Shown: piece by piece, positions 1,316-58,552 of the stretch
How positions within the stretch are numbered: position 1 is the first letter of the stretch
Layout: each line of letters opens with the position of its first letter
Assembly (NCBI GenBank): GCA_965249325.1
Contig: CBDFLP010000012.1
Location: 6,428 to 70,427, forward strand
Source of the DNA: Dehalococcoidia bacterium
GTDB lineage: Bacteria > Chloroflexota > Dehalococcoidia > Lucifugimonadales > Australimonadaceae
Length of the DNA: 64,000 nucleotides
Direction: 5' to 3'
Program-made: the position numbers and the translations under genes
The notes under the pieces: generated by a model
Database searches by the model: none
The model's input: the letters and a program-made list of their open reading frames with translations, nothing else
Told to the model about the DNA's origin: nothing

Positions 1316-2064
1316 CCCAACAACAAGACCGTTTGGCGCATCTGCCACGCGCATACGTGGCCAAGAAGCAGGAGGTGGCGGAGGACCTCTTCCTCCTCTG
1401 GCTGCGGCCCGACGAGCCCTTCCGGTTCAAGCCGGGCCAGTACATCACCATCGGGACCGGCGGGATCGAGCGTCCCTACTCGATAGCGTCAGCGCCCTAC
1501 GAGAATCTCATCGAACTGTTCGTCGAGTACGTCTTGCCTGAGTATGGAGGGAAGCTCACGCCGCTGCTGTGGAACCTCCACGTTGGGGACTCGGTGTCGA
1601 TGCGGCCCCGCGCGAAGGGCCTGTTCGTCTTTCAGCCGCAGTTCCACCATCACCTGATGCTGGGCACGGTTACGGGCGTGGCACCCTACGTGAGCATGAT
1701 CCGGCAGGCGTTGAAGGACAACACTCGTGGGCACCACTTCTACGTGATGGAGGGCGCGAGCCACCAGGACGAGTTCGTCTACGACTCTGAACTGAACCGT
1801 CTGGCGGAGCGCCTCCCGGAGATGGTCACGTTCGTGACGACGGTGAGCCGCCCGCAGGCCGAGCGCAACCGCAGCTGGAACGGGCCGACCGGGCGGGTGA
1901 ACACGCTCGTAGAGGAGTACGCCCAGCGCTGGAGTCTGCCCAAGGAGGACACTGCCGTCTACCTTTGCGGCAACCCCGGCATGATCGAGGACGTGAAGGA
2001 GCGCCTCGCGGGGAATGGCTGGAACGTCTACGAAGAGCGGTTCTGGAAGGAAGACGAGGCTTAG
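1312..2064 (+). CDS. Ferredoxin-NADP reductase-like FAD/NAD(P)-binding oxidoreductase
   Basis: 250 aa with the FNR-family R-x-Y-S motif (ERPYSIAS) and a GTGVAP nucleotide-binding loop (LGTVTGVAPYVSM). It is translationally coupled to the upstream oxidoreductase. Confidence 0.8.
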   Translation: MTQQQDRLAHLPRAYVAKKQEVAEDLFLLWLRPDEPFRFKPGQYITIGTGGIERPYSIASAPYENLIELFVEYVLPEYGGKLTPLLWNLHVGDSVSMRPRAKGLFVFQPQFHHHLMLGTVTGVAPYVSMIRQALKDNTRGHHFYVMEGASHQDEFVYDSELNRLAERLPEMVTFVTTVSRPQAERNRSWNGPTGRVNTLVEEYAQRWSLPKEDTAVYLCGNPGMIEDVKERLAGNGWNVYEERFWKEDEA

Positions 2065-2090
2065 GGGACAAGCCCCGCGGGAGGTCGCTG

Positions 2091-2531
2091 ATGGAAGTCA
2101 AAGAGTTGGGCCATGTCGTTCTATTCGTTAGCGACGTCGAACGCTCGCGCCATTTCTACACCGATATCCTGGGCTGGCGCGAGCTGCGCCGTGAGGGCGC
2201 GCGTCCGGGCACGGCCACGTATTCCACCGGACGAACGCACCACGAACTGTACCTGATGCAGGTTAGCGAGGATGCGCAGCCCATCCCCCAAGGCCCTCGC
2301 TTGGGCCTGTATCACATCGGCGTGAAGATCGGGACGACGGACGAGGAGCTTCAGGCAGCGCTTGCCGAGCTGCATGAAGCGGGAGTGCGTGTGATCGGCT
2401 CGTCAGATCACGGCCATACCCACAGCCTGTACATCCTCGACCCCGACGGCAATGAGGTTGAGCTGTACATCGACGTGCAGCCCGAGACGTGGAGGGAAGA
2501 CTTCGCGTCGGCCAAGCAACTTGCGCTCTAA
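2091..2531 (+). CDS. VOC/glyoxalase-bleomycin resistance-dioxygenase family protein
   Basis: ATG 2091 lies behind a GGGAGG RBS inside ORF 1965..2531. The sequence MEVKELGHVVLFVSDVERSRHFYTDILGW ... HIGVKI ... SLYILDPDGNEVELY is the typical paired beta-alpha-beta-beta-beta VOC pattern. Confidence 0.8.
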   Translation: MEVKELGHVVLFVSDVERSRHFYTDILGWRELRREGARPGTATYSTGRTHHELYLMQVSEDAQPIPQGPRLGLYHIGVKIGTTDEELQAALAELHEAGVRVIGSSDHGHTHSLYILDPDGNEVELYIDVQPETWREDFASAKQLAL

Positions 2532-2583
2532 GGCCGGCTGCCTCCACTTTCCGTTCCACGCCCCGCCTGGCTAGAATCTCCGG

Positions 2584-5169
2584 GTGGCGAGCCCCGTTCG
2601 TAAGCAATACCTCGAGATCAAGTCGCGCTATCCCGATGCGTTGCTCTTGTATCGCATGGGCGACTTCTACGAGACGTTCGATGAGGATGCCCGCCTAGCT
2701 GCGCGAGACTTGGAAATTGTGCTGACGCAGCGCGACATGGGGGAGGGGGAGGTCGTGCCCCTCGCGGGGATCCCGTTCCATGCGCTGGACGGCTACCTCG
2801 CCAAGCTTATTCGCAAGGGTCACCGGGTCGCGATAGCCGAGCAGACCAGTGAGCCCGACGGCAAGCGGCTCGTCGACCGCGGCGTCCTACGCGTAGTTAC
2901 GCCGGGCACGGTGATCGAGCCGGGCCTGCTCGACTCCGGCGCGAACAACTACCTGGCGGCCGTCGCCCTCGGCGGCGCGGAGTCCGGAGTCGCCTACGTC
3001 GACATCACGACGGGAGAGTTCGCCGTAACCCAGCTTGCGTCAGGCGCCGTTGCCGAGGAGCTTGCGCGGCTTGCTCCGTCCGAGGTCATCGTATCCGAGA
3101 GCGGGGCGTCCAGCTTGGATACGCAGTCGGCCCAATACAGCGTTACTAGGCTGAACGGCGCGAGCTTCGCGCCGAACGCGGCCCGCCGGCGTGTGCTGGA
3201 CCATTTCGGAGTGCGCTCTCTGGACGCTTTCGGATGCGAGTCGCTGGCCCTGGCGACGAGCGCCGCGGGCGCAATTATCGAGTACCTGGGCAAGACCCAC
3301 CAGGCTACGCTTCCTCAGCTGACAGGACTGCGGACCTACTCGACGGAGTCGTTCATGACGCTCGACCCGCAGACGCGGCGCAACCTCGAGTTATTCGAGG
3401 GCGGACGTTGGGGAGGGCGCGACCAGTCGCTCCTGAAAGTGCTCGACCTCACGGTAACGTCCATGGGGGCGCGGCTGCTGCGGCGATGGCTTGGCCAGCC
3501 GCTGCTTGACATCCCGGCTCTGGAGCAACGGCTCGACGCCGTGGCGTGGCTGCACGAGTCCGATGCCCGCCGCCAGCGGGTGCGCGCGCAGCTGGCGGAG
3601 GTCTCGGATATCGAGCGGGCGGTGCAGCGCATCGGGGCCGGGGCTGCGTTCCCGCGGGAAGTCGTGGGATTGCGTCACTCCCTGGAGCGCGTTCCTGCGC
3701 TCAGGACCCTCGCCGAAGAGGTCGGCGAGGGGTTGGGCTGGCTCGCAGGCGCCCTGGAGCCCTGTGCTCAGATCGTCGATCTGATCAGGACGACGATCGC
3801 CGACGACCCCCAGGGCGACGTGGGGCAGGGCAGGGTGGTCCGGGAGGGCTACTCAGCGGAGATGGACGAAGTGCGCTCCGCGGCCCAGGACGCCCGCTCC
3901 TACATCGCGGGGCTCGAACGCAAGGAACGCGAGCGCACCGGCATATCGAATCTGAGGGTCGGGTACAACAAAGTCTTTGGCTACTACCTCGAAGTGTCGA
4001 ACGCCAATCTAGCCAACGTGCCGGACGACTATGTCCGCCGTCAGACGCTGGTCAACGCGGAGCGCTTCTACACGCCGGAGCTCAAGGAACACGAGAATCG
4101 CGTCTTGAATGCGGGCGACCGCCTACAAGAGCTTGAGTCGGCAGTCTTCCGCCAGCTTTGCCGCCAGGTGACGGGCCAAGCGGCGCAGGCGTTGGCGACG
4201 GCCCAGGGGCTGGCGACGCTGGATGCGCTGCTGTCCTTGGCGGAGGCGGCCGTGCGCTACGGCTACGTTCGACCGACGCTGGACGAGGGCGAGCGGCTCT
4301 TCCTGCGCAAGGCGCGTCACCCGGTCGTCGAGCGCTTCCTGCCCAGCGGCTCGTTCGTCCCAAACGACACCGACCTCTCGACCGACAAGGACCAGCTCGT
4401 AATTCTCACGGGGCCGAACATGGCCGGCAAGTCGACGTATCTTCGGCAGGTGGCGACGGCAGCGCTGATGGCGCAGATCGGCTCCTTCGTGCCGGCGGAT
4501 GAGGCGCACGTGGGGCTGGTGGACCGAATCTTCACGCGGGTCGGCCTGCAGGACGACCTCGCCGCGGGGCAGTCCACATTCATGGTCGAGATGGTCGAGA
4601 CGGCCGCCATTCTCCACCACGCCACGCGCCGCTCCCTGGTCATCCTGGACGAGATTGGCCGGGGCACATCGACCTTCGACGGTCTCTCCATCGCCCAAGC
4701 GGTCGCCGAGCATATCCACAATGCCCCCATGCTCGGCTGCCGTACGCTGTTCGCGACCCACTACCACGAGCTGACGGCCCTCGCCAACCGGCTGCCGCGC
4801 GTCAGCAACCACAGCGTCGCGGTGTCCGACGAGGGAGGCGAGGTGGTCTTCCTGCATCGCATCACGCAGGGCGGAGCGGACAAGAGCTACGGCGTGCACG
4901 TAGCGCAGCTCGCGGGCCTTCCGAGGCCTCTCATCGACCGCGCCAGGGAGTTGTTGATCGAGCATGAGGCGGGAGGACCGACGAGGGCCAGAGGCAGGCG
5001 CGCGCTCCCAGGTGCGCCCGCGCAGGGCGAGTTGTCGCTGTTCGGTGGTCTGTCGCCCAAAGCCAGGGCGCTCCTCGACGAGCTGCGCGAGCTGGACGTG
5101 GACAATCTCACTCCCCGTCAGGCCCTCGACAAGCTTGCCGAGTTGCGGGGGCAGGCGGCGGAGGGTTGA
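2584..5169 (+). CDS. mutS: DNA mismatch repair protein MutS
   Basis: 861 aa with a GTG start. The N-terminal mismatch-binding motif is YRMGDFYETF, Walker A is GPNMAGKST, and the ABC region is STFMVEM...LDEIGRGTST. Confidence 0.96.
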   Translation: MASPVRKQYLEIKSRYPDALLLYRMGDFYETFDEDARLAARDLEIVLTQRDMGEGEVVPLAGIPFHALDGYLAKLIRKGHRVAIAEQTSEPDGKRLVDRGVLRVVTPGTVIEPGLLDSGANNYLAAVALGGAESGVAYVDITTGEFAVTQLASGAVAEELARLAPSEVIVSESGASSLDTQSAQYSVTRLNGASFAPNAARRRVLDHFGVRSLDAFGCESLALATSAAGAIIEYLGKTHQATLPQLTGLRTYSTESFMTLDPQTRRNLELFEGGRWGGRDQSLLKVLDLTVTSMGARLLRRWLGQPLLDIPALEQRLDAVAWLHESDARRQRVRAQLAEVSDIERAVQRIGAGAAFPREVVGLRHSLERVPALRTLAEEVGEGLGWLAGALEPCAQIVDLIRTTIADDPQGDVGQGRVVREGYSAEMDEVRSAAQDARSYIAGLERKERERTGISNLRVGYNKVFGYYLEVSNANLANVPDDYVRRQTLVNAERFYTPELKEHENRVLNAGDRLQELESAVFRQLCRQVTGQAAQALATAQGLATLDALLSLAEAAVRYGYVRPTLDEGERLFLRKARHPVVERFLPSGSFVPNDTDLSTDKDQLVILTGPNMAGKSTYLRQVATAALMAQIGSFVPADEAHVGLVDRIFTRVGLQDDLAAGQSTFMVEMVETAAILHHATRRSLVILDEIGRGTSTFDGLSIAQAVAEHIHNAPMLGCRTLFATHYHELTALANRLPRVSNHSVAVSDEGGEVVFLHRITQGGADKSYGVHVAQLAGLPRPLIDRARELLIEHEAGGPTRARGRRALPGAPAQGELSLFGGLSPKARALLDELRELDVDNLTPRQALDKLAELRGQAAEG

Positions 5170-5170
5170 G

Positions 5171-5593
5171 GTGCATCTAGGCGCGCATGTATTCGTGGAC
5201 GGCAACAACTTGATGGGCTCGCGCCCGGACGGGTGGTGGCGCGGCCGCGCGGCAGCGGAGCGGCGACTGGTCGAGCAGCTGGCGAGCGTCGCCCTGGATT
5301 TGGGCGGGCAGTGGACCGTCGTGTTCGACGGCGCGCCGCCAAGGGGCGAGCTTACGCCTCCGGCGCACGCGCTCAGCGTGGAGTACGCCGAACGTCGAGG
5401 CCCCGACGCTGCGGACGACCACATCGTGGGCCTCCTTGCCTCGCTGCCCAACGGAGCCGATGCGCTTGTCTACACATCGGACCGGCGGCTGCGCGAGCGA
5501 GCGTCCGCGCTGGCTGCGCGAGTGAAGGGCGTGAGCGCGTTGCTCAGGGAGATTGACGGCGGCGGGGAACGTCGGCGCGAGGAGCCACGATGA
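5171..5593 (+). CDS. NYN/YacP-like (PIN-fold) predicted RNA-binding protein
   Basis: GTG 5171 lies directly after the mutS stop. The sequence HLGAHVFVDGNNLMGSRPDGWW ... VVFDG ... VEYA..ADDHIV is the YacP/NYN pattern. Only the 3' part of ORF 4964..5593 is taken as real. Confidence 0.6.
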   Translation: MHLGAHVFVDGNNLMGSRPDGWWRGRAAAERRLVEQLASVALDLGGQWTVVFDGAPPRGELTPPAHALSVEYAERRGPDAADDHIVGLLASLPNGADALVYTSDRRLRERASALAARVKGVSALLREIDGGGERRREEPR

Positions 5594-6057
5594 CGAGTTG
5601 GGGCGACTTCGAGGCGGCGGACCCCGAGCTCGCGGCGTTAGGGCGGGCGCTGTTCTTGGAGACCCAGCTCACGCTCCTAGGTTCGCTGCGGAAGGACGGC
5701 TGGCCGCGCATCAGCCCCGTCGAGCCGCTCTTCCTCTCCGGGGAGCTCTACCTTGGCATGATGTGGCAGTCGCGCAAAGCCCTCGATCTCCTGCGGGATT
5801 CTCGCTGCACGGTTATGAACACGGTCCATGACCGCATGATCCCGGACGGCGAGTTCAAGCTATTCGGTCGCGCCGTCGAGGTCACGGACCCCGACGAGCG
5901 CGCGGCCTACGAGTCCGCACTCTACGAGCAATTAGGTTTCTCACCTACGGATACGGGCGACGAGGACTACCATCTATTCAAGATCGACGTCGCCAGCGCG
6001 TCCTTCGCCAAGATCCAGAACGACGAATGGGTGCGGAGGTTCTGGCGGGCGGGGTGA
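5590..6057 (+). CDS. Pyridoxamine 5'-phosphate oxidase (PPOX) family protein
   Basis: 155 aa with an ATGA overlap to the upstream gene. The GSLRKDGWPRISPVEP...GELYLG pattern is typical of split-barrel PPOX-like proteins. Confidence 0.65.
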   Translation: MTSWGDFEAADPELAALGRALFLETQLTLLGSLRKDGWPRISPVEPLFLSGELYLGMMWQSRKALDLLRDSRCTVMNTVHDRMIPDGEFKLFGRAVEVTDPDERAAYESALYEQLGFSPTDTGDEDYHLFKIDVASASFAKIQNDEWVRRFWRAG

Positions 6058-6127
6058 CCTCATCTCGTCGGAGTATGGCCTTTGGCCTGCTGAGAGCGGG
6101 TGAACCTGGACAGCGGCGTTACAATCA

Positions 6128-6937
6128 TTGCAGAGGTGGGCCATGGTCGATGAGCTGGTGAGGGAGCAAACCGAGACGGCGACGACGCAAGACCTCGCGG
6201 AGCAGTTCGCCCTGCGCCCCGACCTCGACGAGTCGCCTGAGTTCCTCGGCGGCCTATACAACCTGTCGGTCTGGAAGCCTAAGGACGCCGAGCACCGGTA
6301 CTTTCAGGAGCATGCTCCGAAGGCTGGCGAAGTCGCGCCGGACTTCACCCTCCCGCTCCTGGACGGCGGAGAGATTACTCTTTCGTCGCTGCGCGGGAAG
6401 CCGGTGATGATTGAGTTCGGCTCCGTCACCTGACCGCCGTGCGTAGCGGAGTCTCCGCTAATGGAACAGCTGGCCAAGCGGTATGCGGACGACGCGCACT
6501 TCCTGTTCGTCTACGTCCGCGAAGCACACCCCGGCGAGGCCTACCCGCCGCACCAGTACTACGAGCAGAAGACGCTGCACGCGAGGTCGTTCAGGGAGCG
6601 TCTGGGCATCGAGCGCACGATCGCAATCGATTCCCTGCAAGGCAAAGTGCACAGGGTGTACGGCGGCGTGTCGAACATGTCTTGGATCGTTGATCACACG
6701 GGCCGCGTCGCCTACCGGGCGGCATGGACAGTCGCGGACGACATAGAGTGGGCGCTCACGGAGATCATCGCGTCGCGGGAGCTGAAGCGCAGCGGGAAGT
6801 CCACCGCCACGTTCTACCGCGAGATCGTGGGGCTCCGGCCGCAACGCGCGCCGCTGGAGGGACTGCCGCGCTTCATGGGAGGCGCGGTGGCGGCGCGGCA
6901 GTTCGAAGCAGCCAAAGGGCGGACGGATCGGGGCTGA
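6128..6937 (+). CDS. Thioredoxin-fold, iodothyronine-deiodinase-like protein with in-frame UGA (probable selenocysteine at 6431-6433)
   Basis: ORFs 6128..6433 and 6461..6937 share one frame and are separated only by TGA. The context FGSVT-TGA-PPC puts the TGA at the nucleophile position of the GSxT[C/U]PP motif, and VYVREAHPGE follows downstream. A hairpin begins 10 nt after the TGA. Confidence 0.7.
6444..6460 (+). other. Putative bacterial SECIS hairpin
   Basis: Perfect 7-bp stem tagcgga / tccgcta with loop gtc, starting 10 nt after TGA 6431-6433. Confidence 0.55.
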
Positions 6938-7013
6938 TTGGCATATCCTGATAGCGATAGCTCCGCCGGGCGTAGTCACGGCGGCCTGATTCCGGAGGAG
7001 GACGTAGCCGATC

Positions 7014-7394
7014 GTGCCTATTTATGAGTTCAGATGCAATGCGTGCGGGGCCAAGTCCGCTCTCTTCTTCCGGCACATGACGACCGATGCGAAAGGGGAG
7101 TGCAGCCGGTGCGGCAGTCCCGACACGCGACGGCTCTTCTCGACCTTCCGCGTTCTCAAGCCCGCCGCCGACCCTAGCAAGCTGAACAAGGCGGAGCTGT
7201 TGGATGGCGTCGACTATACGAACCCGGGCTCTATGGCGCAGTTCTTCCGCCGCATGGGCGATTCGTTTGGCGACGCGCCCAACGAGCACATGGAAGAGAT
7301 AGTCGGAAGGCTCGACCACGGCGAGCCGGTGCACGAGGCGCTGGGGCTCGACATGGGCCACGATCACTCTGCCCCCGCTGCCGACGGCGACTGA
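7014..7394 (+). CDS. FmdB-family zinc-ribbon protein (CxxC...CxxC)
   Basis: MPIYEFRCNACGAKS...ECSRCGSPDTRRLFS is the canonical FmdB/CxxC_CxxC_SSSS N-terminus. Confidence 0.8.
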   Translation: MPIYEFRCNACGAKSALFFRHMTTDAKGECSRCGSPDTRRLFSTFRVLKPAADPSKLNKAELLDGVDYTNPGSMAQFFRRMGDSFGDAPNEHMEEIVGRLDHGEPVHEALGLDMGHDHSAPAADGD

Positions 7395-7421
7395 GCCAGG
7401 GGCCTACTCGCCTGCAATGCA

Positions 7422-7452
7422 AGAGGGGCGGGAGTATATCTCCCGCCCCTCT
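7422..7452. terminator. Bidirectional intrinsic-terminator-like hairpin between convergent genes
   Basis: 13-bp perfect inverted repeat agaggggcgggag / ctcccgcccctct with loop tatat. It lies between the + strand stop at 7394 and the - strand stop at 7482. Confidence 0.6.
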
Positions 7453-7481
7453 GCTCGTTCGCGTGTCAGCGTCGGAGCCGT

Positions 7482-8522
7482 CTAGTCGGGGACGTTGGCG
7501 AATGCCGGGAAGACCTTCAACGGGTTGGTGTTGATGATCGTGATCTTGTCCTCTTCCGAGAGCGAAGGCAGGTAGTCGATGACCGGGAGCAGGTTGTCGG
7601 AGGTGAGGCCGACTGCGGTCTGGGACGGGTGGTCGCTTTCCTTACGCACGTTGCGGCCAGAGCCGGGGGCTTCGGTGCCGAAGGCAATGTTCGCTGGGCC
7701 CCACTGCTTGATGGCAAGCTCGAGGTAGTCGATGTCGTACGTGCAGGTGTCGAAGAAGAGGTTGTCGCCCTTCCACTTGCCCCGGTGGCCGGAGGAAGCG
7801 ATGAAGCGGTCCAGCGCGCCTCCCGCGTGGGCGATGCAGATGCGGAGGCCGGGGAACTTCTCGAAGATGTCGCTGTAGGCGAGGATGCGCGTTGCGAGGA
7901 ACGTTTCGACGACGAACCCGACCTGGTAGTTGCCGGGGATGTGGCCGATGCGCGGATCTAGGCAGTTGGTGCCGTGGATGAACACCGGCACGTCCCACTC
8001 CTGGCACTTCTCATACACGGGGTGCCAGTAGGGCTCGTGCATGCCGGGTGAGTTGTGGCGGCCGTCCGGGTCCGGGCTCAGGTACGTGCCGACGAACCCG
8101 TAGTCCTTCACGTTCATCTCGAACTCGGGGATGCAGTTGCTGAGGTCCGGGGCCTCGGCAATCTGGGGCAGCATGGACGCGCCGAGGAAGCGGGTGGGGT
8201 GGTTCTGCACCTGCTTGCGGATGGTGTCATTTGTGAACTCGCACCATGGGTCGTAGAGGTTGCGGGGCATCCAGCCCATCATCGTGAACGGGCGCGGGCC
8301 GATGACTTGCACGTCGATGTTCCGCTCGTCCATGTACTCCGCGTGCATCTTGTTCGTCGCGGCGAACGCGTCGTCGCTGAGGTCGCCGCCCGCCGAGCCG
8401 GTCGCCCGCAGCGGGCTTGCGCCTACGTGCCCGGAGGAGAACCCTCCAACGATCCACGAGCGGACCGAATTCGGCGCCGATACGTGGCCGTGCACATCAA
8501 GAACCTTCGTGCCTTTGAACAT
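7482..8522 (-). CDS. Amidohydrolase_2 family metal-dependent hydrolase/decarboxylase (ACMSD-like)
   Basis: 346 aa. The N-terminal VLDVHGHV metal-binding HxH motif, a later HGT..., and IAHAGG are typical of this family. Confidence 0.85.
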   Translation of the reverse strand: MFKGTKVLDVHGHVSAPNSVRSWIVGGFSSGHVGASPLRATGSAGGDLSDDAFAATNKMHAEYMDERNIDVQVIGPRPFTMMGWMPRNLYDPWCEFTNDTIRKQVQNHPTRFLGASMLPQIAEAPDLSNCIPEFEMNVKDYGFVGTYLSPDPDGRHNSPGMHEPYWHPVYEKCQEWDVPVFIHGTNCLDPRIGHIPGNYQVGFVVETFLATRILAYSDIFEKFPGLRICIAHAGGALDRFIASSGHRGKWKGDNLFFDTCTYDIDYLELAIKQWGPANIAFGTEAPGSGRNVRKESDHPSQTAVGLTSDNLLPVIDYLPSLSEEDKITIINTNPLKVFPAFANVPD

Positions 8523-52314: not shown

Positions 52315-52971
52315 CTAGCGCGCGAGCATCTGCTCGTAGTTGATACCCATCACTTCGACGACCGACTTGCCGGCCATCACGTCCGCCGCCATCGCCTGCT
52401 CGCGGGCGACGATATTCTCCGCCTCCGGGACGACCTCGGTCACGCGGTCCTGCGGGACGACGACCACGCCGCTGTTGTCGGCGATGATGTAGTCGCCCGG
52501 CGCGAGGGAGACGCCGCCGATTTCGATGGGCTCGTTCGTCGACTCCTCGACGATGCGGCCCCTCGCCGTCAGGGGGACGGCGGCCCTTGCGAAGAGCGGC
52601 AGCCCGAGGCCCTTGGCCTCGTCCACGTCCCGCGACGCGCCGTCGATGATGACGCCAACGACGCCCTTGGTCTTGGCGGCGGTCGAGAGGATGCCGCCCC
52701 ATCCCGCGACATCGGTCCTGCCCCGGTGGTCGCAGACGATGATGTCGCCGGGGTCGGCGGCTTCGACGGCGGCCGTGCCCAGGTGGCGGACAGTGGTCTC
52801 GTTGCCCTTGGTCTTGAGCTTGAAGGTCACCGCCCTACCGGCGATCCGGCCCGTCTCGTAGAGAGGGAGGATGCCGATGACCGTGCCCTTGATGCCCAGC
52901 TTGTCCTGCGCGTCGGAGACGGCGCAGGAGTCGAGCTTGCCTAGCCGCTCGACCCATTCGTCGACTGCCAT
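52315..52971 (-). CDS. RraA-family protein (4-hydroxy-4-methyl-2-oxoglutarate aldolase / RNase E regulator-like)
   Basis: Start is MAVDEWVERL (ATG 52971 behind GGGAGG) inside ORF 52315..53220. Motifs are PGDIIVCDHRG..DVAGWGGILSTAAKTKGVVGVIIDGASRD. Confidence 0.85.
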   Translation of the reverse strand: MAVDEWVERLGKLDSCAVSDAQDKLGIKGTVIGILPLYETGRIAGRAVTFKLKTKGNETTVRHLGTAAVEAADPGDIIVCDHRGRTDVAGWGGILSTAAKTKGVVGVIIDGASRDVDEAKGLGLPLFARAAVPLTARGRIVEESTNEPIEIGGVSLAPGDYIIADNSGVVVVPQDRVTEVVPEAENIVAREQAMAADVMAGKSVVEVMGINYEQMLAR

Positions 52972-52985
52972 GATTGCCTCCCGGC

Positions 52986-53375
52986 CTAGCCTTCCACGTA
53001 AGCGGTGAACTGGATCTGCAGCTCCATCCCGCCCGCGAGCGCGTCGTACTGGATGGTGTGGCGGGTGGGGCGGCTCTCCTCGTCCGGGAACATGGCGACC
53101 CACTGCTCGTTGATCAGGGGGCGCATGTCGCGGCTCTTCACGTAGACGTTCATGTGCGCGATGTCGTCGGTCGTGCCGCCGGCCTCCGCCACGATGCGCC
53201 GGACGTGCTCGAAGGCCCACTGGGCCTGCTCAGTCAGGTCAGAGGGCATCTCGTTGGTCTCCGGGTTCAGGCCGCTGACGCCTCCGGACGTAACGAGTGG
53301 GCCGGTCTTGGACGCGGGGGGGATGGGCTGTCCGCCGTGCCAGTTGCCCGGGATGTGCAGCACTCTCCTTGCCAT
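52986..53375 (-). CDS. RidA/YjgF/UK114 family protein
   Basis: Start is MARRVLHIPG (ATG 53375) inside ORF 52986..53627. The 129-aa protein shows the RidA pattern ...LVTSGGVSG.....E.P.D...Q...AFEHVRRIV..AGGT.DDI...... Confidence 0.8.
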   Translation of the reverse strand: MARRVLHIPGNWHGGQPIPPASKTGPLVTSGGVSGLNPETNEMPSDLTEQAQWAFEHVRRIVAEAGGTTDDIAHMNVYVKSRDMRPLINEQWVAMFPDEESRPTRHTIQYDALAGGMELQIQFTAYVEG

Positions 53376-53542
53376 GGACTCACCTCTAGAAGGGGATATT
53401 GGATGCAGTTGAGTATCGCCCGCGCCTCGGAAGTCCGCAAGCGCGGGGGCCCGTCCGTCTACCTTCCGTAATACCCGCCCACCTCCCGTCATACCCGCGC
53501 AGGCGGGTATCCAGGTACCGGCCTCCCTCCCCCAGCGCCGCC

Positions 53543-53617
53543 CCAATAGGTTCGTGGTGGCTGCCAACGGGTTTGTGGTCGCTGCCAATAGGTTCGTGGT
53601 GAGCCTGTCGAACCACG
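53543..53617. repeat. 21-bp tandem repeat (about 3 units) ending in a hairpin
   Basis: Units are ccaataggttcgtggtggctg, ccaacgggtttgtggtcgctg and ccaataggttcgtggtgagcctg. The last unit forms cgtggtgagcctgtcgaaccacg. A related gttcgacaggctcaccacgaa occurs at 62481-62501. Confidence 0.7.
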
Positions 53618-54145
53618 CCGCCCGCAATCAACGTTCTCCTCCCCTTCCGCTCTAGGTCCCCCCGTCTGCGACGCATGATGCCCGGTGAGGCCGGAATCGG
53701 CTCCGGCCCGGCGCATCGCACGACCGTTGGGGCTTGCTTTGTCCGAAGATGCCTCCGCCATCTCACTCGTAACGTTCCCCGGCCTACGAGTGCGCGAGGG
53801 CTGCCTCTCGAAAAAAGCGTGCCATTTCGTGCCATTAAGTGCCATTTACTCCTGGCGGATCCTTCCCTAGCCCCTCCTTGGTAAGGAGGGGAACAGGGCC
53901 TAAACCAGTGTCGCGTAACCAGTGTAGGGAGAGCAGGGGTGTTCGGGGATGGGGCAAATGTCAGTCTTGCGCCGCTTCAGCAATGTTGTGTCACGCGTCG
54001 TCTGCGGAGGGGGAGCTAGGGAAGGGGAGCCAAAGAGAGAGGAGAGGGACATGGGACTCCCGCCGCCTGGATGCCCAGGCTGGTTAGGCGTGGCGACGTG
54101 AGGAGGTGATACTGTGAGCAATGGATCGGATCAGGGGGACAAGCG

Positions 54146-54547
54146 ATGGCGCGCAAGAAGCGGGTGTTTATCAGTTTCGATTACGCTGACCGGGGCCTGA
54201 AGAACGACTTTGTCTGTCAGTCGGAGCAGCGTGATGTCCAAATTGCCATCACCGACGCATCGCTAGTCGAAGCGGAACCGGAGTCCCAGTGGGTCGCAGA
54301 AACCAATCGCCGAATCCAGAGTTGCGACGTGTTCATGGTTATCATGGGTCCGAACGCCCACCAAGCTCCCGGTGTGCTTCGTGAAGTAAGCATTGCCGTA
54401 GGGTTGAACAAGCCTCGGTTCCAGCTCAAGCCAAAGCGCAGGTACGGGTCTCCTGTGAAGAACGCAGGGGCAATAGTGCGGTGGCCGTGGAAGACACTGG
54501 AACCGTGGTTCACCATAGACTCCGGTCGAGCGGGCTGGCAGGCGTAG
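54146..54547 (+). CDS. TIR-like domain protein (DUF1863/MTH538-like)
   Basis: 133 aa. MARKKRVFISFDYADR..., then W....N.RI..CDVFMVIMGPNAHQAPGVLREVSIAV follows the TIR-like layout. The gene is lower in GC than its neighbours. Confidence 0.7.
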   Translation: MARKKRVFISFDYADRGLKNDFVCQSEQRDVQIAITDASLVEAEPESQWVAETNRRIQSCDVFMVIMGPNAHQAPGVLREVSIAVGLNKPRFQLKPKRRYGSPVKNAGAIVRWPWKTLEPWFTIDSGRAGWQA

Positions 54548-54548
54548 C

Positions 54549-54965
54549 GTGGACAAGGAAGCCGCCAGGATTGAGCACCTGAAGCTGATTCAGCAGGTAA
54601 TCGAACGTCTCGCTAGGAGTTCGTTCGTGATCAAAACTGCTGCGTCAACGGTTACCGCAGCCATCGTGGCAGCGACGGTCGCGGCTTCAACTCCGGCAAT
54701 CGGTTTGGGGGGCGTGGCGTTGCTTAGCCTATGGGGGCTCGATGCCTTCTACCTGCCGAGGGAACGTCGATTCCGGGCCCTCTTCAACCAAGTGCGCACA
54801 GGGGCGGCCTCAGAGTTCAGCACCAAATCCTACTTCACGATGACAACCCACCCTGGCCCGTCCGGGAGTGTATGGAGAGCAGCTTGCTCATCGACGCTGG
54901 TGACTCTCTACCCGTCTCTTCTTCTGGTAATCGGGGCACTGGCCGCAGCAACGGAGGTTGCCTAG
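54549..54965 (+). CDS. Small membrane protein (about 3 hydrophobic helices), candidate effector partner of the TIR-like protein
   Basis: GTG 54549 lies 1 nt after the TIR gene stop. It has an N-terminal amphipathic helix (EHLKLIQQVIERLARSSF), two adjacent hydrophobic segments and a C-terminal hydrophobic segment. Confidence 0.6.
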   Translation: MDKEAARIEHLKLIQQVIERLARSSFVIKTAASTVTAAIVAATVAASTPAIGLGGVALLSLWGLDAFYLPRERRFRALFNQVRTGAASEFSTKSYFTMTTHPGPSGSVWRAACSSTLVTLYPSLLLVIGALAAATEVA

Positions 54966-55357
54966 CACCCCCTCGCCCGAAATCCGCCACGGAGCCGCGT
55001 TGAGGGGAGCTTCCTGAGCGTCTCGTTGTGCGGGTCCACCTCGATGCCTATGGACTCCAGAACAGTCAGGCCCAGCAGCGGCTCGGCGTCCTCCTCTGCG
55101 AATACGATGTTCGCAGCAGTAACCTCCCCCATGAGTTCCACCTGAGCGACTGCAATCTCCCTCCTCACCTCGCTGCCGTCGGCGAGGCCGTACACGCGTG
55201 CTCCCTTGGGCGCGAGGCCGATTGCCTCCAGGTATTGCCTGGGCGCGAGACAGTCCATTGCTCCCGTGTCGACCAGAAACAGGCCCTCCCAGGTTTTCTC
55301 GGGGTCGGCGGGGTTTCGGACGGTAACGGTTACGTGTGTTGCTCCTATTGTCGCATC
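54962..55357 (-). CDS. Retropepsin-like (clan AA) aspartic protease; start codon unclear
   Basis: The listed ORF starts at MDCLAP (55258), but the frame is open upstream through the catalytic LFLVDTGAM to a TGA near 55440. There is no ATG/GTG/TTG in that stretch, so the 5' end is approximate. The stop shares the CTAG tetranucleotide with the convergent TM gene stop. Confidence 0.55.
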   Translation of the reverse strand, partial: DATIGATHVTVTVRNPADPEKTWEGLFLVDTGAMDCLAPRQYLEAIGLAPKGARVYGLADGSEVRREIAVAQVELMGEVTAANIVFAEEDAEPLLGLTVLESIGIEVDPHNETLRKLPSTRLRGGFRARGC

Positions 55358-55471
55358 CTCTCGTGGCGCCCAGCGTCCTAGGAACGTGCCTACGCGTCCA
55401 ATGTAGGTTTGGCCTGCGTACGTGTCAATCAGACATTGTCACGGACGACCTGCGCAGCCTCATCCCACTCC

Positions 55472-56779
55472 TCACCCTGTCGCCGCCGCCTCGCGGGCGT
55501 TCGCTTCTTCGACGAGGCGGTGTATCGCCCTTATCTGGCCGCTGAAGATGAACGCGAGGGCGGTGACGGCGATGACGGCGGCACCTCCCACGGCTATGGC
55601 GAAGGGCGTGCTGGTGAACGAGGCGACGAAGCCCGCTTGCAGCGCGCCGAGGGGCGCGAGGCTCCACATGACGCCCCGAAGCCCCATCACGCGCCCGCGG
55701 TACTCCGTCGGGACCAGCAGGTTGAGCAGCGTGTTGGAAGCCGTCTGGAACACCGAGTAGAGCCCGCCGCTCGCCGCGGCCATGGCGAGGGCGAGCCAAT
55801 ACCACTGCATGATCCCGTTGACGCCGAACAGCACCACGGACAGGCCGAGCAGCCCCGCGCCGCCGCCGAGCATGAGCGCCCTGCTCTGGTGCTGTCCGTA
55901 CGAAGCGGAGAGGAAGATGCCGATGAGGCCTCCGACGCCGCTTGCGGTCTGCAGCAGGCCGAGGCCCTCGGGGCCCAGTCCCAGCACGTCCGTCGCGTAG
56001 GCGGGCAGCAGCCATTGATAGGAGAGCCCGAAGTAACCGATGGAGAAGCTCATCATGAGCAGCAGAAGGAAGATGCGATGCCTCGCGACGAACTTGAGGC
56101 CGTCCGCGATGTCGTGCAGCATGGTCTTGCCGGTCGCGCGCCGCATCCCTTCAGGCAGCTTGATGGTTACGATGGCGATGGCCATGGCGGCGAACCCCGC
56201 CGCGATCAGGTAGAAGGCGACAGCAGCCCCGAGACGGAAGTCGCCCGTGACTGCGCCGACGATGGCGATCGGCCCCGCCGCGATCATGGGCGCGAACACC
56301 CGCGTTCCGTTCCACACGCTCTGGTTCAGAGCTGTCGCGAACATGAACTGGTTCCGCTGGATGAGCGCGGGCCAGACCACGCGGCGCGCGGGCTGGTCCA
56401 GCGACGTCGAGATGCCGATGAGGAACGACGAGAAGACGATGTGCCAGACCTCGACGCGTTCGATCAATACGAGGGTGGCCAGCGCCGCGATGATGATGGC
56501 CGAGAAGCCCTCGCCCAAGAGGATGAGGCGCCGGGGATCGATCCGGTCCGCGAGGGCGCCCGCGACGAGGTTGAAGATGATTGCGGGGATGGCCTGGGCA
56601 GCCGCCACGAGGCCCAGGGCGACCTCTTCGCCGGTCATGTCGTAGACGAGCCATCCTTGGGCGGTGAGCAGCGCCTGATGCGACGTGACGCTCGCGACGA
56701 GGCCCAGCCAGTAGCGGCGGTAGTACCTCGTGCGGAGGACGGAGAGGAACTCGAAGCGTCGGGCCAGAGCGTTGCGCAC
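55472..56779 (-). CDS. MFS transporter (MFS_3 / enterobactin-exporter-like)
   Basis: 435 aa with about 12 TM segments and the motif GALADRIDPRRL. Confidence 0.85.
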   Translation of the reverse strand: MRNALARRFEFLSVLRTRYYRRYWLGLVASVTSHQALLTAQGWLVYDMTGEEVALGLVAAAQAIPAIIFNLVAGALADRIDPRRLILLGEGFSAIIIAALATLVLIERVEVWHIVFSSFLIGISTSLDQPARRVVWPALIQRNQFMFATALNQSVWNGTRVFAPMIAAGPIAIVGAVTGDFRLGAAVAFYLIAAGFAAMAIAIVTIKLPEGMRRATGKTMLHDIADGLKFVARHRIFLLLLMMSFSIGYFGLSYQWLLPAYATDVLGLGPEGLGLLQTASGVGGLIGIFLSASYGQHQSRALMLGGGAGLLGLSVVLFGVNGIMQWYWLALAMAAASGGLYSVFQTASNTLLNLLVPTEYRGRVMGLRGVMWSLAPLGALQAGFVASFTSTPFAIAVGGAAVIAVTALAFIFSGQIRAIHRLVEEANAREAAATG

Positions 56780-57150
56780 CGGGTTACGTTACCCTTGTTC
56801 GGCCCCCTCCTCAATCCTCTGTTGCCTGCGAGCAGTGTCGGCGAGACCCTTGCCTAGGCAACCCTCTGAGCAAATGGCTGATGCCTCCAACCCCCCCTGC
56901 AGGACCCCTCTCCCGTCTGGAGACCTTTGCGTAACACGCGTCGGAGGCGAACGGCGGCATTTGCCCATTGCCCAGTTCTTCGCAATGCCCTACAATGAAG
57001 TGTCATAATGTCGTCATTCCCAGGGCCGCAGGCCCCCAACCACCGGCGGTGGAGACTGAGAGGGGGCAGGCCGCATGAAATAAAAAAACATTATCGGTCA
57101 GGTTGTAGCCCTAACCCAGGAAGCAGGCCACGGCCATGAAAACGCCCCCC

Positions 57151-57276
57151 GAAAAGCTGACCGGTCCCTGTTTTCCGGTAGGGTTTTTACTCGTAACGAA
57201 ATGTGCAACCGGTCAGCTTTTTACTCGTAACGAAAATGCAAACGGTCAGCTTTAATGTGCAAACGGTCAGCTTTTC
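57151..57276. mobile_element. MITE-like element: 13-bp terminal inverted repeats enclosing tandem direct repeats
   Basis: gaaaagctgaccg (57151-57163) is the exact reverse complement of cggtcagcttttc (57264-57276). Inside are three direct repeats ending in (a/c)cggtcagc (57184-57218, 57219-57250, 57251-57271). Confidence 0.5.
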
Positions 57277-57295
57277 GGAAGTGATAGGGGTGTAG

Positions 57296-58552
57296 GTGGC
57301 CATTTTTAGCTCCACGATCCGGCGCGCCCGGTCTGGCTTCTACGGTTGGCGCATCGTCGCCCTCATGCTCGGGCCCCGGTCGGTCGGGAACGGCGTGTAC
57401 GTCTTCGGCAACACGCTGTTCGTCATCCCCCTCGAAGAGACGCTGGGGTTGAACCGCAGCCTGTCGTCGCTGATGTTCGCCATAGGGGGCGTGATAGGCG
57501 GGCTGTCGGCGCCCGTCAGCGGAATGCTCATGGACCGGTGGGGCCCGCGGCGGGTGCTGATATGGAGCGTGCTGATCGGCGCGGCGGGCTACGGTCTGTT
57601 CGCAGGCTCGCCGAACCTGATGGTCGCCTTCATCATCTTTCTTGGCCCGATCAGCCTCGTCATGCTGAACATCGCGTTCAATGCCTCGTCAGGGATCATC
57701 AACAACTGGTTCAATCGCTACAAGTCCACGGCGTTCGCGCTCATGCAAGGAGGCTCCGGGCTGGGGTCGCTTGCGATCATCACGGCGCTGGCGTTCGCCA
57801 TCGATGCGTGGGGATGGAGACAGGCGTCGCTCCTCGCAGGCGCAATCATCCTGGCGGTGGGGCTTCCCACTGCTCTCGCCACGCGGGATACGCCGGAGGA
57901 GATGGGGCTGCACCCGGACGGCGAGGCGCCGGTCAGGTGGGCGTCGGTCCCGCCCGGCGCCCTGGCCGGGCCGTCGGCCGGCGCGGCGTTGCGCACGCCG
58001 AGCTTCTGGATGATGGTGGCGACGACCACCCTGTTCGGCGGTGCGATGACGGCCCTGGGCATCCACTTCGTGCCGGTGATGGTATGGAAGGGGCTGACCG
58101 AGGTGGAGGGAGCGTTGATGCTCACGGTCTGGGCGCTGGGCAGCGTCGTGACGATAGCGGCGGTCGGGGCGCTTGCGGACCGGCTAGGCCGATTCCGTGT
58201 CGGGGGCGGGGCGTGCCTGTTCGTGGGGACTGGCGTCTTACTGCTGAACGTCGGCGGCGCTGGGGTGGGGTTGTGGGTCGCGGTCCTACTGCTGTCGGGG
58301 TCGAGCAGCCTCTACCCGTTGATGTGGTCGATTCTTGGCGAGCTGTTCGGCCGCCGAGCTTACTCCACGATCCGGGGCTACGTGATGGCGGCGCAAGCCG
58401 ACGGCTCCCTGGGAGCCCCCATCATGGCCGGCGCGGTGTTCGAGGCGACGGGCAGCTACGTGTTCCCGCTGTGGGTCCTCGCCGGCATGTGGGCCGGGGC
58501 CGCGCTGCTGATGTTCGTTACCCCGAACCGGACCTATGTGAGGCTGACGTAG
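57296..58552 (+). CDS. MFS transporter (oxalate/formate antiporter-like)
   Basis: 418 aa with a GTG start, about 12 TM segments and the motif GMLMDRWGPRRV. Confidence 0.85.
   Translation: MAIFSSTIRRARSGFYGWRIVALMLGPRSVGNGVYVFGNTLFVIPLEETLGLNRSLSSLMFAIGGVIGGLSAPVSGMLMDRWGPRRVLIWSVLIGAAGYGLFAGSPNLMVAFIIFLGPISLVMLNIAFNASSGIINNWFNRYKSTAFALMQGGSGLGSLAIITALAFAIDAWGWRQASLLAGAIILAVGLPTALATRDTPEEMGLHPDGEAPVRWASVPPGALAGPSAGAALRTPSFWMMVATTTLFGGAMTALGIHFVPVMVWKGLTEVEGALMLTVWALGSVVTIAAVGALADRLGRFRVGGGACLFVGTGVLLLNVGGAGVGLWVAVLLLSGSSSLYPLMWSILGELFGRRAYSTIRGYVMAAQADGSLGAPIMAGAVFEATGSYVFPLWVLAGMWAGAALLMFVTPNRTYVRLT

What the first reader, a model, noticed from the sequence alone, without database searches (positions are those of the whole stretch)
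54146..54965. Minimal TIR-like + small multi-TM protein cassette: candidate uncharacterised abortive-infection/signalling module
54146..54547 encodes a 133-aa protein that opens with MARKKRVFISFDYADR. Later it shows the W...I..CDVFMVIMG...GVLREVSIA arrangement typical of the TIR-like DUF1863/MTH538 branch, with a candidate catalytic Glu in LREVS. Its TAG stop is followed after a single nucleotide by GTG 54549, which suggests translational coupling. That second gene encodes a 138-aa protein with an N-terminal amphipathic helix (EHLKLIQQVIERLARSSF). It has about three hydrophobic segments (KTAASTVTAAIVAATVAAS; AIGLGGVALLSLWGLDAFYL; STLVTLYPSLLLVIGALAAA) and no enzymatic motif. A TIR enzyme paired with a small pore-like membrane effector follows the logic of Thoeris/CBASS/Pycsar-type suicide defence, and of the computationally predicted SLATT 2TM effectors. 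This bare two-gene form, with no SIR2, Macro or sensor domain, is not one of the experimentally characterised systems I can name. By eye the cassette is A/T-richer than the flanking metabolic genes, especially at third codon positions. It sits beside about 770 bp of repeat-laden non-coding DNA (53376-54145) and a retropepsin-like gene, which is an accessory-islet context.
Basis: partly seen in the sequence, partly recalled or inferred. Interest (0 to 1): 0.85.

Follow-up and report, generated by a model that had tools for sequence, protein, structure and literature searches.

The report
Type V Thoeris anti-phage gene pair
This is a real two-gene anti-virus module, a small TIR signalling enzyme followed by a three-helix membrane 'suicide' protein, but it belongs to the recently described type V Thoeris family (PADLOC candidate PDC-M50), so it is a new example in an uncultured Dehalococcoidia genome, not a new kind of system.

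Summary
Window 54146-54547 encodes a 133-aa TIR-fold protein with an invariant Glu80. One nucleotide later, 54549-54965 encodes a 138-aa protein with three membrane helices. Both genes are under purifying selection, and their GC3 (0.66-0.69) is far below that of the flanking genes (0.88-0.93).

The cassette is not uncharacterised. The membrane protein matches PADLOC PDC-M50A (E=2.8e-24). I link that family to ThsF, the effector labelled 'DUF2270' in type V Thoeris (Yirmiya et al., bioRxiv, Dec 2025, validated in Bacillus). Close homologues of catalogued type V ThsB proteins (79% and 67% identical) sit directly beside members of this family (hhalign E=4.5e-51). The window's TIR aligns full-length at 34-40% identity with three ThsBs catalogued as type V.

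The TIR/ThsF pairing recurs in 20/24 reference-genome loci, 12/16 viral contigs and 4/4 sampled contigs. The effector is not SLATT, and the flanking genes are metabolic, so this is not a defence island.

Likely mechanism: ThsB senses phage and makes an NAD-derived signal, ThsF oligomers bind it and breach the membrane, and the infection aborts.

Still open: which signal is used (this ThsB is closest to a type IV ThsB; that type signals with N7-cADPR), and the meaning of a natural ThsB-ThsF fusion in related MAGs.

Verdict: new member of a known kind.

The parts
53874..54145 (+). Conserved 272-bp leader upstream of the TIR gene (presumed promoter/5'UTR; travels with the cassette)
   Evidence: 92% identical over 272 bp to the stretch immediately upstream of the TIR gene in L001-L003/L007. 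There it abuts the 3' end of a serine-recombinase gene instead of the window's 53376-53873. No sigma-70-like promoter, terminator or Rfam hit was found, so the promoter role is inferred only.
54146..54547 (+). thsB-like gene: 133-aa minimal TIR-domain protein, candidate catalytic Glu80
   Evidence: Pfam TIR_2 28.2 bits (cutoff 28), E=2.9e-6. AF2 pLDDT 80.8; Foldseek top hits are TIR domains. 34-40% identity over residues 4-119 to three 'DUF2270 - Type V' ThsBs of Table S1. Glu80 is invariant and aligned with the Glu of WVRYEI (BcThsB) and KWEIQ (type IV PsTIR, E79 by my count). dN/dS 0.17-0.23.
54545..54551 (+). TAG-c-GTG junction (stop of thsB, 1 nt, start of thsF): likely translational coupling
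   Evidence: Read directly in the sequence. The TAGCGTG junction is identical in L002, L005, L006 and L007. L009 has a 4-nt overlap and L011/L012 are fused in frame.
54549..54965 (+). thsF-like gene: 138-aa three-TM effector (PADLOC PDC-M50A family)
   Evidence: PDC-M50A E=2.8e-24. The family holds 4,215 clusters at 50% identity. AF2 pLDDT 90.2 with helices 3-46, 49-84 and 115-137. Hydropathy and the charge distribution fit an N-in/C-out 3-TM topology. The effector next to a ThsB 67% identical to the validated Bacillus sp. 1NLA3E type V ThsB aligns to this family at hhalign probability 100%, E=4.5e-51. dN/dS 0.195 vs L005.

Best explanation
The cassette is a type V Thoeris-family anti-phage system: a minimal ThsB (TIR) sensor/synthase followed by a ThsF membrane effector, probably acquired horizontally by a Dehalococcoidia bacterium.

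Proposed mechanism, inferred by homology to the characterised systems:
1. On phage infection the 133-aa TIR protein uses Glu80 to convert NAD+ into a cyclic ADP-ribose-type second messenger.
2. The messenger binds conserved basic residues in the cytoplasmic helices of ThsF (R20, K29, R73, R76, R83). ThsF is a three-TM protein expected to form a ring-shaped homo-oligomer.
3. Binding opens or disrupts the membrane, which kills or arrests the infected cell before phage progeny are released (abortive infection).

Shown here: the fold and family of both proteins, the conserved Glu, three TM helices, conserved gene pairing, purifying selection and foreign base composition.

Inferred: the defence phenotype, the identity of the signal, oligomerisation and membrane disruption.
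For: Effector family:
- Protein 2 matches PADLOC PDC-M50A at E=2.8e-24.
- Table S1 of Yirmiya et al. labels IMG 2620964761 'DUF2270 - Type V'. Its TIR is 79% identical to the TIR on Klebsiella plasmid NZ_AP022022.1, whose immediate downstream gene is a PDC-M50A member at E=1.8e-46.
- A ThsB 67% identical to the experimentally validated Bacillus sp. 1NLA3E type V ThsB is followed 3 bp later by a 135-aa protein. That protein aligns to the window's family at hhalign probability 100%, E=4.5e-51.

TIR protein:
- Pfam TIR_2 at threshold. The AF2 model matches TIR structures.
- Full-length 34-40% identity to three catalogued type V ThsBs.
- Glu80 is invariant and aligned with known catalytic Glu positions. 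E79Q abolishes defence in the related type IV PsTIR.

Pairing: a TIR gene is adjacent in 20/24 reference-genome loci across at least 7 phyla, 12/16 viral contigs and 4/4 sampled contigs. The two genes are fused into one ORF in L011/L012.

Topology: three TM helices, as the preprint describes for ThsF.

Selection and origin: dN/dS about 0.2 for both genes. GC3 is 0.66-0.69 against 0.88-0.93 in the flanks.

Function of the type: type V systems from B. thuringiensis DAR 81934 and Bacillus sp. 1NLA3E protect B. subtilis. The former is triggered by 3'cADPR.
Against: - No experiment exists for this cassette or for any member of its short-ThsB subfamily. Cluster 2635319349 entries are not marked as tested in Table S1.
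- The window's ThsF does not match Pfam DUF2270 (PF10028), the label the preprint uses. Only 19/89 relatives give sub-threshold hits (best E=0.004), confined to the TM1-TM2 hairpin. The link to ThsF therefore rests on neighbours of close ThsB homologues, not on a direct ThsF sequence comparison.
- The window's TIR does not hit PADLOC's PDC-M50B or any ThsB model at E<=1.
- The two validated type V ThsBs are not detectably similar to it beyond the fold (E=0.24 and 1.3).
- One tested type V system (V. cholerae) gave no defence. The 1NLA3E effector was not triggered by 3'cADPR.
- The preprint itself warns that effector labels in Table S1 are noisy, and that TIRs in unverified configurations might act as NADase effectors.
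- No neighbouring defence genes.
Confidence: 0.75

Rival explanations
1. Same two proteins but reversed or direct wiring. The TIR would be the toxic NAD+-depleting effector, and the membrane protein a sensor or anchor that activates it by protein-protein contact, with no diffusible second messenger.
For: The natural in-frame TIR-ThsF fusion in L011/L012 shows the two can work on one polypeptide. The preprint concedes that TIRs in unverified configurations may be NADase effectors. The TIR has no separate sensor domain (133 aa).
Against: In the validated type V system, externally added 3'cADPR alone makes ThsF-expressing cells sick, and the sponge Tad1 blocks defence, so a diffusible signal acts on ThsF. 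ThsF homologues pair with at least four unrelated ThsB clusters, often with 2-3 TIR genes around one effector. That fits a shared small-molecule interface better than co-evolved protein contacts. ThsF has invariant basic and acidic residues in its cytoplasmic helices.
Confidence: 0.1
2. The pair is a decaying or domesticated remnant with no current anti-phage role in this genome, for example a membrane-stress or housekeeping function, or a silent cargo gene pair.
For: There are no adjacent defence genes and the flanks are metabolic. No recognisable promoter or terminator. Some relatives carry damaged copies: a frameshifted TIR in L004, a degenerate ThsF C-terminus in L027 and a truncated P0019. 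Four ThsF homologues have no TIR neighbour (L020, L023-L025).
Against: Both ORFs are intact with dN/dS about 0.2 against a 72-79% identical relative. The catalytic Glu and all family-invariant ThsF residues are retained. The junction and the 272-bp leader are conserved. PADLOC's PDC set was noted to associate less with other defence systems than island-derived systems do, so a solo location is not unusual.
Confidence: 0.08
3. One reading: the effector is a SLATT-type 2TM pore protein, as in CBASS or type VII Thoeris.
For: General resemblance only: small, membrane-embedded, TIR-associated. Type VII Thoeris does pair TIR with SLATT.
Against: No SLATT Pfam hit at E<=1 for the window protein, and none among the 25 listed families for 89 family members. 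Three, not two, TM helices. The family is separately modelled as PDC-M50A. No solved-structure relative by sequence or fold.
Confidence: 0.02

Closest known systems
Type V Thoeris (ThsB + ThsF 'DUF2270'), e.g. B. thuringiensis DAR 81934 and Bacillus sp. 1NLA3E (Yirmiya et al., bioRxiv 10.64898/2025.12.03.692087)
   Same: Two-gene operon of a TIR protein and a roughly 135-aa three-TM effector. The effector family is the same, by linkage through 79%- and 67%-identical ThsB homologues. The window's TIR resembles three ThsBs listed as type V.
   Different: The window's ThsB is a minimal 133-aa TIR of a cluster (2635319349) not tested experimentally. It is not detectably similar to the two validated type V ThsBs. 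The host is Dehalococcoidia (Chloroflexota), a solo locus among metabolic genes. The signal is unknown.
PADLOC-DB v2 candidate PDC-M50 (Payne et al., 10.1101/2024.01.29.577857)
   Same: Gene A is this effector family (E=2.8e-24). Gene B is a 162-aa ThsB-like TIR that partners ThsF homologues in L010, L016 and L026 (E=1e-53 to 1e-58).
   Different: The window's TIR does not match the PDC-M50B model, so PADLOC would probably not call the system here. PDC-M50 is one of 145 candidates left untested in that study.
Type IV Thoeris ThsB (Pseudomonas sp. 1-7 PsTIR; Rousset et al., 10.1101/2024.10.24.620036)
   Same: The closest experimentally characterised TIR to the window's ThsB by profile (E=1.3e-12). 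Both are short stand-alone TIRs, and Table S1 places type IV TIRs in the same cluster, 2635319349. The catalytic Glu aligns.
   Different: The partner there is a caspase-like protease activated by N7-cADPR. Here the partner is a membrane protein.
Type VII Thoeris (ThsB + SLATT ThsH) and type II Thoeris (ThsB + TM-Macro)
   Same: It works the same way: a TIR-made nucleotide signal activates a membrane-disrupting effector.
   Different: No SLATT or Macro domain here. Different effector family. Those types use other signals (canonical cADPR, His-ADPR).

Membership tests
Type V Thoeris (ThsB + ThsF) | TIR-domain ThsB with catalytic glutamate | tested here: met
   Pfam TIR_2 28.2 bits vs cutoff 28. 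TIR fold by AF2 and Foldseek. Glu80 invariant and aligned to the BcThsB and PsTIR catalytic Glu positions.
Type V Thoeris (ThsB + ThsF) | Effector belongs to the ThsF family as used in the defining preprint | tested here: met
   Indirect but strong. Neighbours of ThsBs 79% and 67% identical to catalogued or validated type V ThsBs are members of the window's effector family (PDC-M50A E=1.8e-46; hhalign E=4.5e-51). The actual ThsF sequences of the tested systems were not available.
Type V Thoeris (ThsB + ThsF) | Effector annotated Pfam PF10028 (DUF2270) | tested here: not met
   No PF10028 hit at E<=1 for the window protein, nor at E<=10 for the Priestia effector. 19/89 relatives give sub-threshold hits (best E=0.004, 14 bits or less vs cutoff 25) limited to profile positions 22-66 of 184. 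The preprint's label is evidently looser than Pfam's gathering threshold.
Type V Thoeris (ThsB + ThsF) | Effector has three membrane-spanning helices | tested here: met
   AF2 helices 3-46, 49-84 and 115-137 (pLDDT 90.2). Hydropathy peaks at about 26-46, 49-69 and 113-137.
Type V Thoeris (ThsB + ThsF) | thsB and thsF adjacent and co-oriented as an operon | tested here: met
   1-nt gap in the window. Pairing found in 20/24, 12/16 and 4/4 loci elsewhere.
Type V Thoeris (ThsB + ThsF) | ThsF forms a ring homo-oligomer with positively charged inter-protomer pockets | not tested
   No multimer modelling was available. Invariant or near-invariant R20, K29, R73 and R76 in the cytoplasmic helices are consistent with it.
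Type V Thoeris (ThsB + ThsF) | Protects against phage; signal is 3'cADPR | not testable with these tools
   Needs cloning, phage challenge and LC-MS. In the preprint only the B. thuringiensis system was shown to respond to 3'cADPR.
PADLOC PDC-M50 | Gene A matches PDC-M50A models | tested here: met
   Four models hit, best E=2.8e-24.
PADLOC PDC-M50 | Gene B matches the PDC-M50B model (PDLC04688) | tested here: not met
   No PADLOC hit at E<=1 for the window TIR. Relatives L009 and L011 hit only weakly (3e-4, 5e-4).
SLATT 2TM effectors (CBASS, type VII Thoeris) | Match to a SLATT-clan profile; two TM helices | tested here: not met
   No SLATT family among the Pfam hits for the window protein or among the 25 families listed for 89 relatives. 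Three TM helices.
Type II Thoeris | Effector carries a Macro domain after the TM helices | tested here: not met
   The 138-aa effector has no Macro hit. One of 89 relatives gave E=0.061, which is negligible.
Type I Thoeris | SIR2-SLOG ThsA next to ThsB | tested here: not met
   The neighbours are RidA, RraA-like, a retropepsin-like ORF and MFS transporters.

The most novel reading that the evidence does not exclude
The short-ThsB/ThsF subtype seen here may signal with a molecule other than 3'cADPR. Its ThsB is closest to a ThsB of type IV Thoeris, the type that signals with N7-cADPR (demonstrated with the E. coli 328 TIR), not to the validated type V ThsBs. One validated type V effector already fails to respond to 3'cADPR. 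If so, ThsF would be a versatile membrane receptor scaffold that different lineages have retuned to different TIR products. The in-frame ThsB-ThsF fusion in related Dehalococcoidia (L011/L012) would then be a single-polypeptide Thoeris in which the signal is made and sensed in cis at the membrane.
Probability: 0.3. Interest if true: 0.55.

Novelty: new member of a known kind. Interest (0 to 1): 0.3.

Why it matters
The result puts a name and a testable mechanism on a pair of 'hypothetical proteins'. It also shows that PADLOC's untested candidate PDC-M50 and the experimentally supported type V Thoeris share the same effector family, an equivalence I did not find stated in the papers I read. The ThsF family is large (about 4,200 clusters at 50% identity), has no Pfam or NCBIfam model that reaches threshold, and is named 'hypothetical protein' by NCBI, so many genomes carry unannotated copies. 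The Dehalococcoidia examples extend the system to an uncultured, phage-poorly-studied lineage. They also offer natural variants (a minimal ThsB, a fused ThsB-ThsF) that could help define which TIR product ThsF recognises. None of this changes the known framework, so the finding's value lies in annotation and comparative material.

Tried and rejected
- SLATT membership: no hits.
- NCBIfam for both proteins: nothing.
- Solved-structure relatives of the effector: none by sequence or by fold (best E=0.94).
- Rfam on 52900-55500: nothing.
- Sigma-70 promoter and intrinsic terminator scan of 53376-55300: 0 sites, as expected by chance.
- Literature search for 'PDC-M50': 0 papers.
- Exact-motif search of the preprint's supplements with window and partner TIR peptides: no hits at first. 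It succeeded only with a Klebsiella TIR peptide.
- tblastn of the V. cholerae type V ThsB against plasmids: no match.
- Plasmid hits H1, H2, H23 and H43 turned out to be other Thoeris contexts (SIR2, Macro, multi-TIR/TPR) and gave no ThsF.
- Further TIR-ThsF fusions among the 18 longest family representatives: none, only low-complexity tails or mis-called starts.
- The idea that the 770-bp upstream stretch is a repeat element or ncRNA: only minor repeats. The 17-mer recurs just once elsewhere in the window, with 3 mismatches.
- Direct proof that the family is Pfam DUF2270: not obtained, only weak TM-hairpin similarity.
Full report
**1. Observation**

One is at 54146-54547 (+, ATG, 133 aa) and the other at 54549-54965 (+, GTG, 138 aa), separated by TAG, one nucleotide, then GTG. 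That junction (TAGCGTG) is identical in four related contigs.

The cassette is compositionally foreign. Its GC is 0.587 against a window mean of 0.649, which is the 4th percentile of 820-bp windows. Its GC3 is 0.66-0.69 against 0.88-0.93 in the six flanking genes. The low-GC tract runs from about 53600 to 55400.

Both genes are under purifying selection against a 72-79% identical relative, with dN/dS of 0.23 and 0.20. They are real genes, not chance ORFs of a GC-rich genome.

The 'repeat-laden 770 bp' description is overstated. The region holds a 3x21-bp tandem, a 2x14-nt pair and one 18-nt inverted repeat, and has no Rfam, promoter or terminator hits. Only its last 272 bp (53874-54145) are conserved in relatives, at 92%.

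**2. Protein 1 is a minimal TIR**

Pfam TIR_2 is reached only at threshold (28.2 vs 28.0 bits), and ThsB_TIR/DUF1863 is sub-threshold at E=0.042. Relatives in other Dehalococcoidia do pass ThsB_TIR.

An AlphaFold2 model (pLDDT 80.8, pTM 0.77) has the alternating beta/alpha TIR layout. Its best solved-structure matches are a B. cereus TIR protein (8fz9, E=3e-6, TM 0.68-0.70), SPARTA TIR-APAZ, plant RPS4 TIR and E. coli ThsB. The related nucleoside 2-deoxyribosyltransferase/DNPH1 fold ranks lower.

Glu80 (LREV) is one of a handful of invariant columns. It aligns with the Glu of WVRYEI in B. cereus MSX-D12 ThsB and of KWEIQ in the type IV Pseudomonas sp. 1-7 TIR. In the latter protein E79Q abolishes defence (10.1101/2024.10.24.620036). 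Matching the aligned Glu to E79 rests on my residue count.

**3. Protein 2 is a three-TM protein of a large, unnamed family**

It has no Pfam or NCBIfam hit. It does match four PADLOC models called PDC-M50A, best E=2.8e-24.

An exhaustive profile search finds 4,215 clusters (at 50% identity) with E<=1e-3. Nearly all are stand-alone proteins of 130-145 aa. None of the top 120 in the indexed search carries a Pfam annotation, and NCBI calls them 'hypothetical protein'.

The AF2 model (pLDDT 90.2) has a long helix at 3-46 (amphipathic N-terminus running into TM1). A second helix spans 49-84 (TM2 running into a cytoplasmic helix that bears the DAxYLxxERxFRxLY motif). A loop follows, then TM3 at 115-137. 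Hydropathy and the distribution of Lys/Arg fit an N-in, C-out topology.

Invariant or near-invariant residues are H10, R20, S25, K29, W62, D65, E72, R73 and R76.

There is no SLATT hit for the window protein, and no SLATT family among those listed for 89 diverse members. The only recurrent weak hit is DUF2270, in 19/89 members with best E=0.004. It is confined to the TM1-TM2 hairpin, profile positions 22-66 of 184. No solved structure is related by sequence or by fold.

**4. The pairing is conserved far beyond this lineage**

The nearest relative is a Dehalococcoidia MAG at 96% identity. In the same lineage the pair is syntenic: 2-Hacid_dh, RraA x2, RidA, the pair, then MFS_3 in L005.

Across 24 reference-genome loci holding a ThsF homologue, 20 have an adjacent TIR gene. 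These loci come from Chloroflexota, Alpha- and Gammaproteobacteria, Planctomycetota, Acidobacteriota, Actinomycetota, Bdellovibrionota and Mycoplasmatota.

The partner TIRs come from several unrelated TIR subfamilies:
- the short type seen in the window;
- a 162-aa type that is PADLOC PDC-M50B (E=1e-53 to 1e-58);
- 220-aa ThsB types;
- 470-527-aa multi-domain TIR proteins.

The TIR gene may lie upstream, downstream or on both sides of the effector. Twelve of 16 viral contigs and 4 of 4 contigs sampled from the broad search also show the pairing, often with two or three TIR genes around one effector.

In two Dehalococcoidia assemblies the TIR and the effector are fused in one 263-aa ORF (L011/L012).

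**5. What it is**

PADLOC's PDC systems are 145 untested candidates found by 'guilt-by-embedding' in BREX, DISARM and type I RM loci (10.1101/2024.01.29.577857).

The decisive literature is Yirmiya et al. (bioRxiv 10.64898/2025.12.03.692087, Dec 2025). They define type V Thoeris as ThsB plus 'ThsF'. ThsF is an effector annotated DUF2270, with three membrane helices, modelled as a homo-heptameric ring with positively charged inter-protomer pockets.

Systems from B. thuringiensis DAR 81934 and Bacillus sp. 1NLA3E protect B. subtilis. The former is triggered by 3'cADPR and blocked by the sponge Tad1.

I could not obtain the ThsF sequences, so I tested the link through ThsB:
- (a) tblastn with the B. 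thuringiensis type V ThsB finds a 39.5%-identical TIR on Klebsiella plasmid NZ_AP022022.1. Its downstream neighbour, 16 bp away, is a PDC-M50A member at E=1.8e-46. The window's effector finds the same gene independently.
- (b) That Klebsiella TIR is 79% identical to IMG 2620964761, which Table S1 lists as 'DUF2270 - Type V'.
- (c) A Priestia plasmid ThsB 67% identical to the validated 1NLA3E ThsB is followed 3 bp later by a 135-aa protein. That protein aligns to the window's family at hhalign probability 100%, E=4.5e-51.
- (d) Three 'DUF2270 - Type V' ThsBs of cluster 2635319349 align to the window's TIR over residues 4-119 at 34-40% identity.

Hence PDC-M50A is the ThsF family, and both genes of the window cassette fall inside the catalogued type V Thoeris space.

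**6. Mechanism**

By homology, ThsB senses infection and uses Glu80 to make an NAD-derived cyclic ADPR-type signal. ThsF oligomers bind it through the conserved basic residues of their cytoplasmic helices and compromise the membrane, which aborts the infection.

Shown here: folds, families, the Glu, three TM helices, pairing, selection and foreign composition. Inferred: the phenotype, the ligand, oligomerisation and membrane damage.

The signal is genuinely uncertain. By profile, the window's ThsB is nearest to the type IV Pseudomonas sp. 1-7 ThsB (E=1.3e-12). The two validated type V ThsBs score only E=0.24 and 1.3. The N7-cADPR signal of type IV was determined with the E. coli 328 TIR. Cluster 2635319349 contains both type IV and type V entries. 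The 1NLA3E type V effector was not triggered by 3'cADPR.

**7. Rivals**

- Reversed or direct wiring (TIR as NADase effector) is made conceivable by the fusion and by the preprint's own caveat. It is disfavoured by the exogenous-signal and sponge experiments in type V, and by one effector family pairing with many unrelated TIRs.
- A relic or non-defence role is disfavoured by intact motifs and dN/dS of about 0.2.
- SLATT membership was tested and not met.

**8. Context**

The flanks are ordinary metabolic and transport genes, so this is a solo cassette and not a defence island.

The immediate flanks are nevertheless variable. In the closest relatives a roughly 7-kb integrase/IstB/serine-recombinase island abuts the conserved leader. 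Window 53376-53873 and the retropepsin region 54966-55480 have no counterpart in relatives.

**9. Verdict**

This is a correct and careful observation, and its Thoeris-like reading is right in outline. However, it describes a member of an already catalogued family (PADLOC 2023-24), and other members of that family have been experimentally validated (Dec 2025 preprint). Novelty: new member of a known kind. Interest: about 0.3. The residual interest lies in the untested short-ThsB subtype, its unknown signal and the natural ThsB-ThsF fusion.

Noticed in passing
window 54146-54965 vs L007 5598-6417: Against the nearest relative, synonymous divergence is about ten times higher in the TIR gene (dS 0.255, 90% aa identity) than in the adjacent effector gene (dS 0.027, 96% aa identity), across a 1-nt junction. 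This suggests a recombination breakpoint or sensor-gene replacement inside the cassette.
   Followed up: partly
L011 5629-6420 and L012 5629-6420: In two Dehalococcoidia assemblies the TIR and the ThsF-like protein are fused in frame into one 263-aa ORF (...KWKAINKKTGRT-MNSEAARIEHLK...). No other fusion was found among the 18 longest family representatives.
   Followed up: partly
window 54965-55399 (- strand): The retropepsin-like ORF overlaps the 3' end of the effector gene by 4 nt, in convergent orientation. Its reading frame continues upstream of the first ATG and encodes the catalytic LVDTGA motif, but there is no ATG/GTG/TTG before it. So it either uses a non-canonical start or is a start-less pseudogene. 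It passes Pfam gag-asp_proteas and Asp_protease_2 only with the extension. It is absent at this position in L005 and L006.
   Followed up: partly
window 53376-53873: A 498-bp non-coding stretch between RidA and the conserved leader has no match in related contigs. It contains three 21-bp tandem units (53543-53601). No Rfam family matches.
   Followed up: partly
L001-L003 about 838-7744: In the closest relatives a roughly 7-kb block sits immediately upstream of the conserved 272-bp leader, replacing the window's upstream DNA. It encodes a tyrosine integrase, an IstB-like ATPase, an Excalibur-domain protein and a large serine recombinase. This is a mobile element or integration hot spot next to the cassette.
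   Followed up: no
L018 (Candidatus Lucifugimonas marina JH545, NZ_CP046146.1): A named strain with a complete genome (per the record title) carries a ThsF homologue flanked by two window-type TIR genes, one on each side (E=6e-28 and 1e-24 to the A2 profile). It is a possible experimental handle.
   Followed up: no
L017 6439-7848: In a Phycisphaerae MAG the ThsF homologue is followed by a 470-aa TIR protein that matches PADLOC 'Aga_TIR-PNTD1-PNTD2' at E=1.8e-120. That is an unusual partner architecture.
   Followed up: no
L020, L023, L024, L025: Four ThsF homologues (Arenicellales, Gaiellaceae, an alphaproteobacterium, Mycobacteriaceae) are solid PDC-M50A members with no TIR gene detected within about 900 bp. 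They may be orphan effectors, or their partners may lie elsewhere.
   Followed up: partly
L031 (Klebsiella plasmid NZ_AP022022.1): A ThsB+ThsF operon sits on a conjugative MOBF/MPF_F plasmid beside a DNA methylase, a DUF1380 protein, a Pol III theta homologue and ParM. Homologues of this ThsB occur on 43 Klebsiella and 36 Escherichia plasmid records, so type V Thoeris appears common on enterobacterial plasmids.
   Followed up: no
window 56800-57400: A second low-GC dip (0.565-0.59) lies in the divergent intergenic region between the two MFS transporter genes.
   Followed up: no
family-wide: The ThsF/PDC-M50A family has about 4,200 clusters at 50% identity but no Pfam or NCBIfam model that reaches threshold. 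The preprint's 'DUF2270' label corresponds only to sub-threshold similarity over the TM1-TM2 hairpin.
   Followed up: yes
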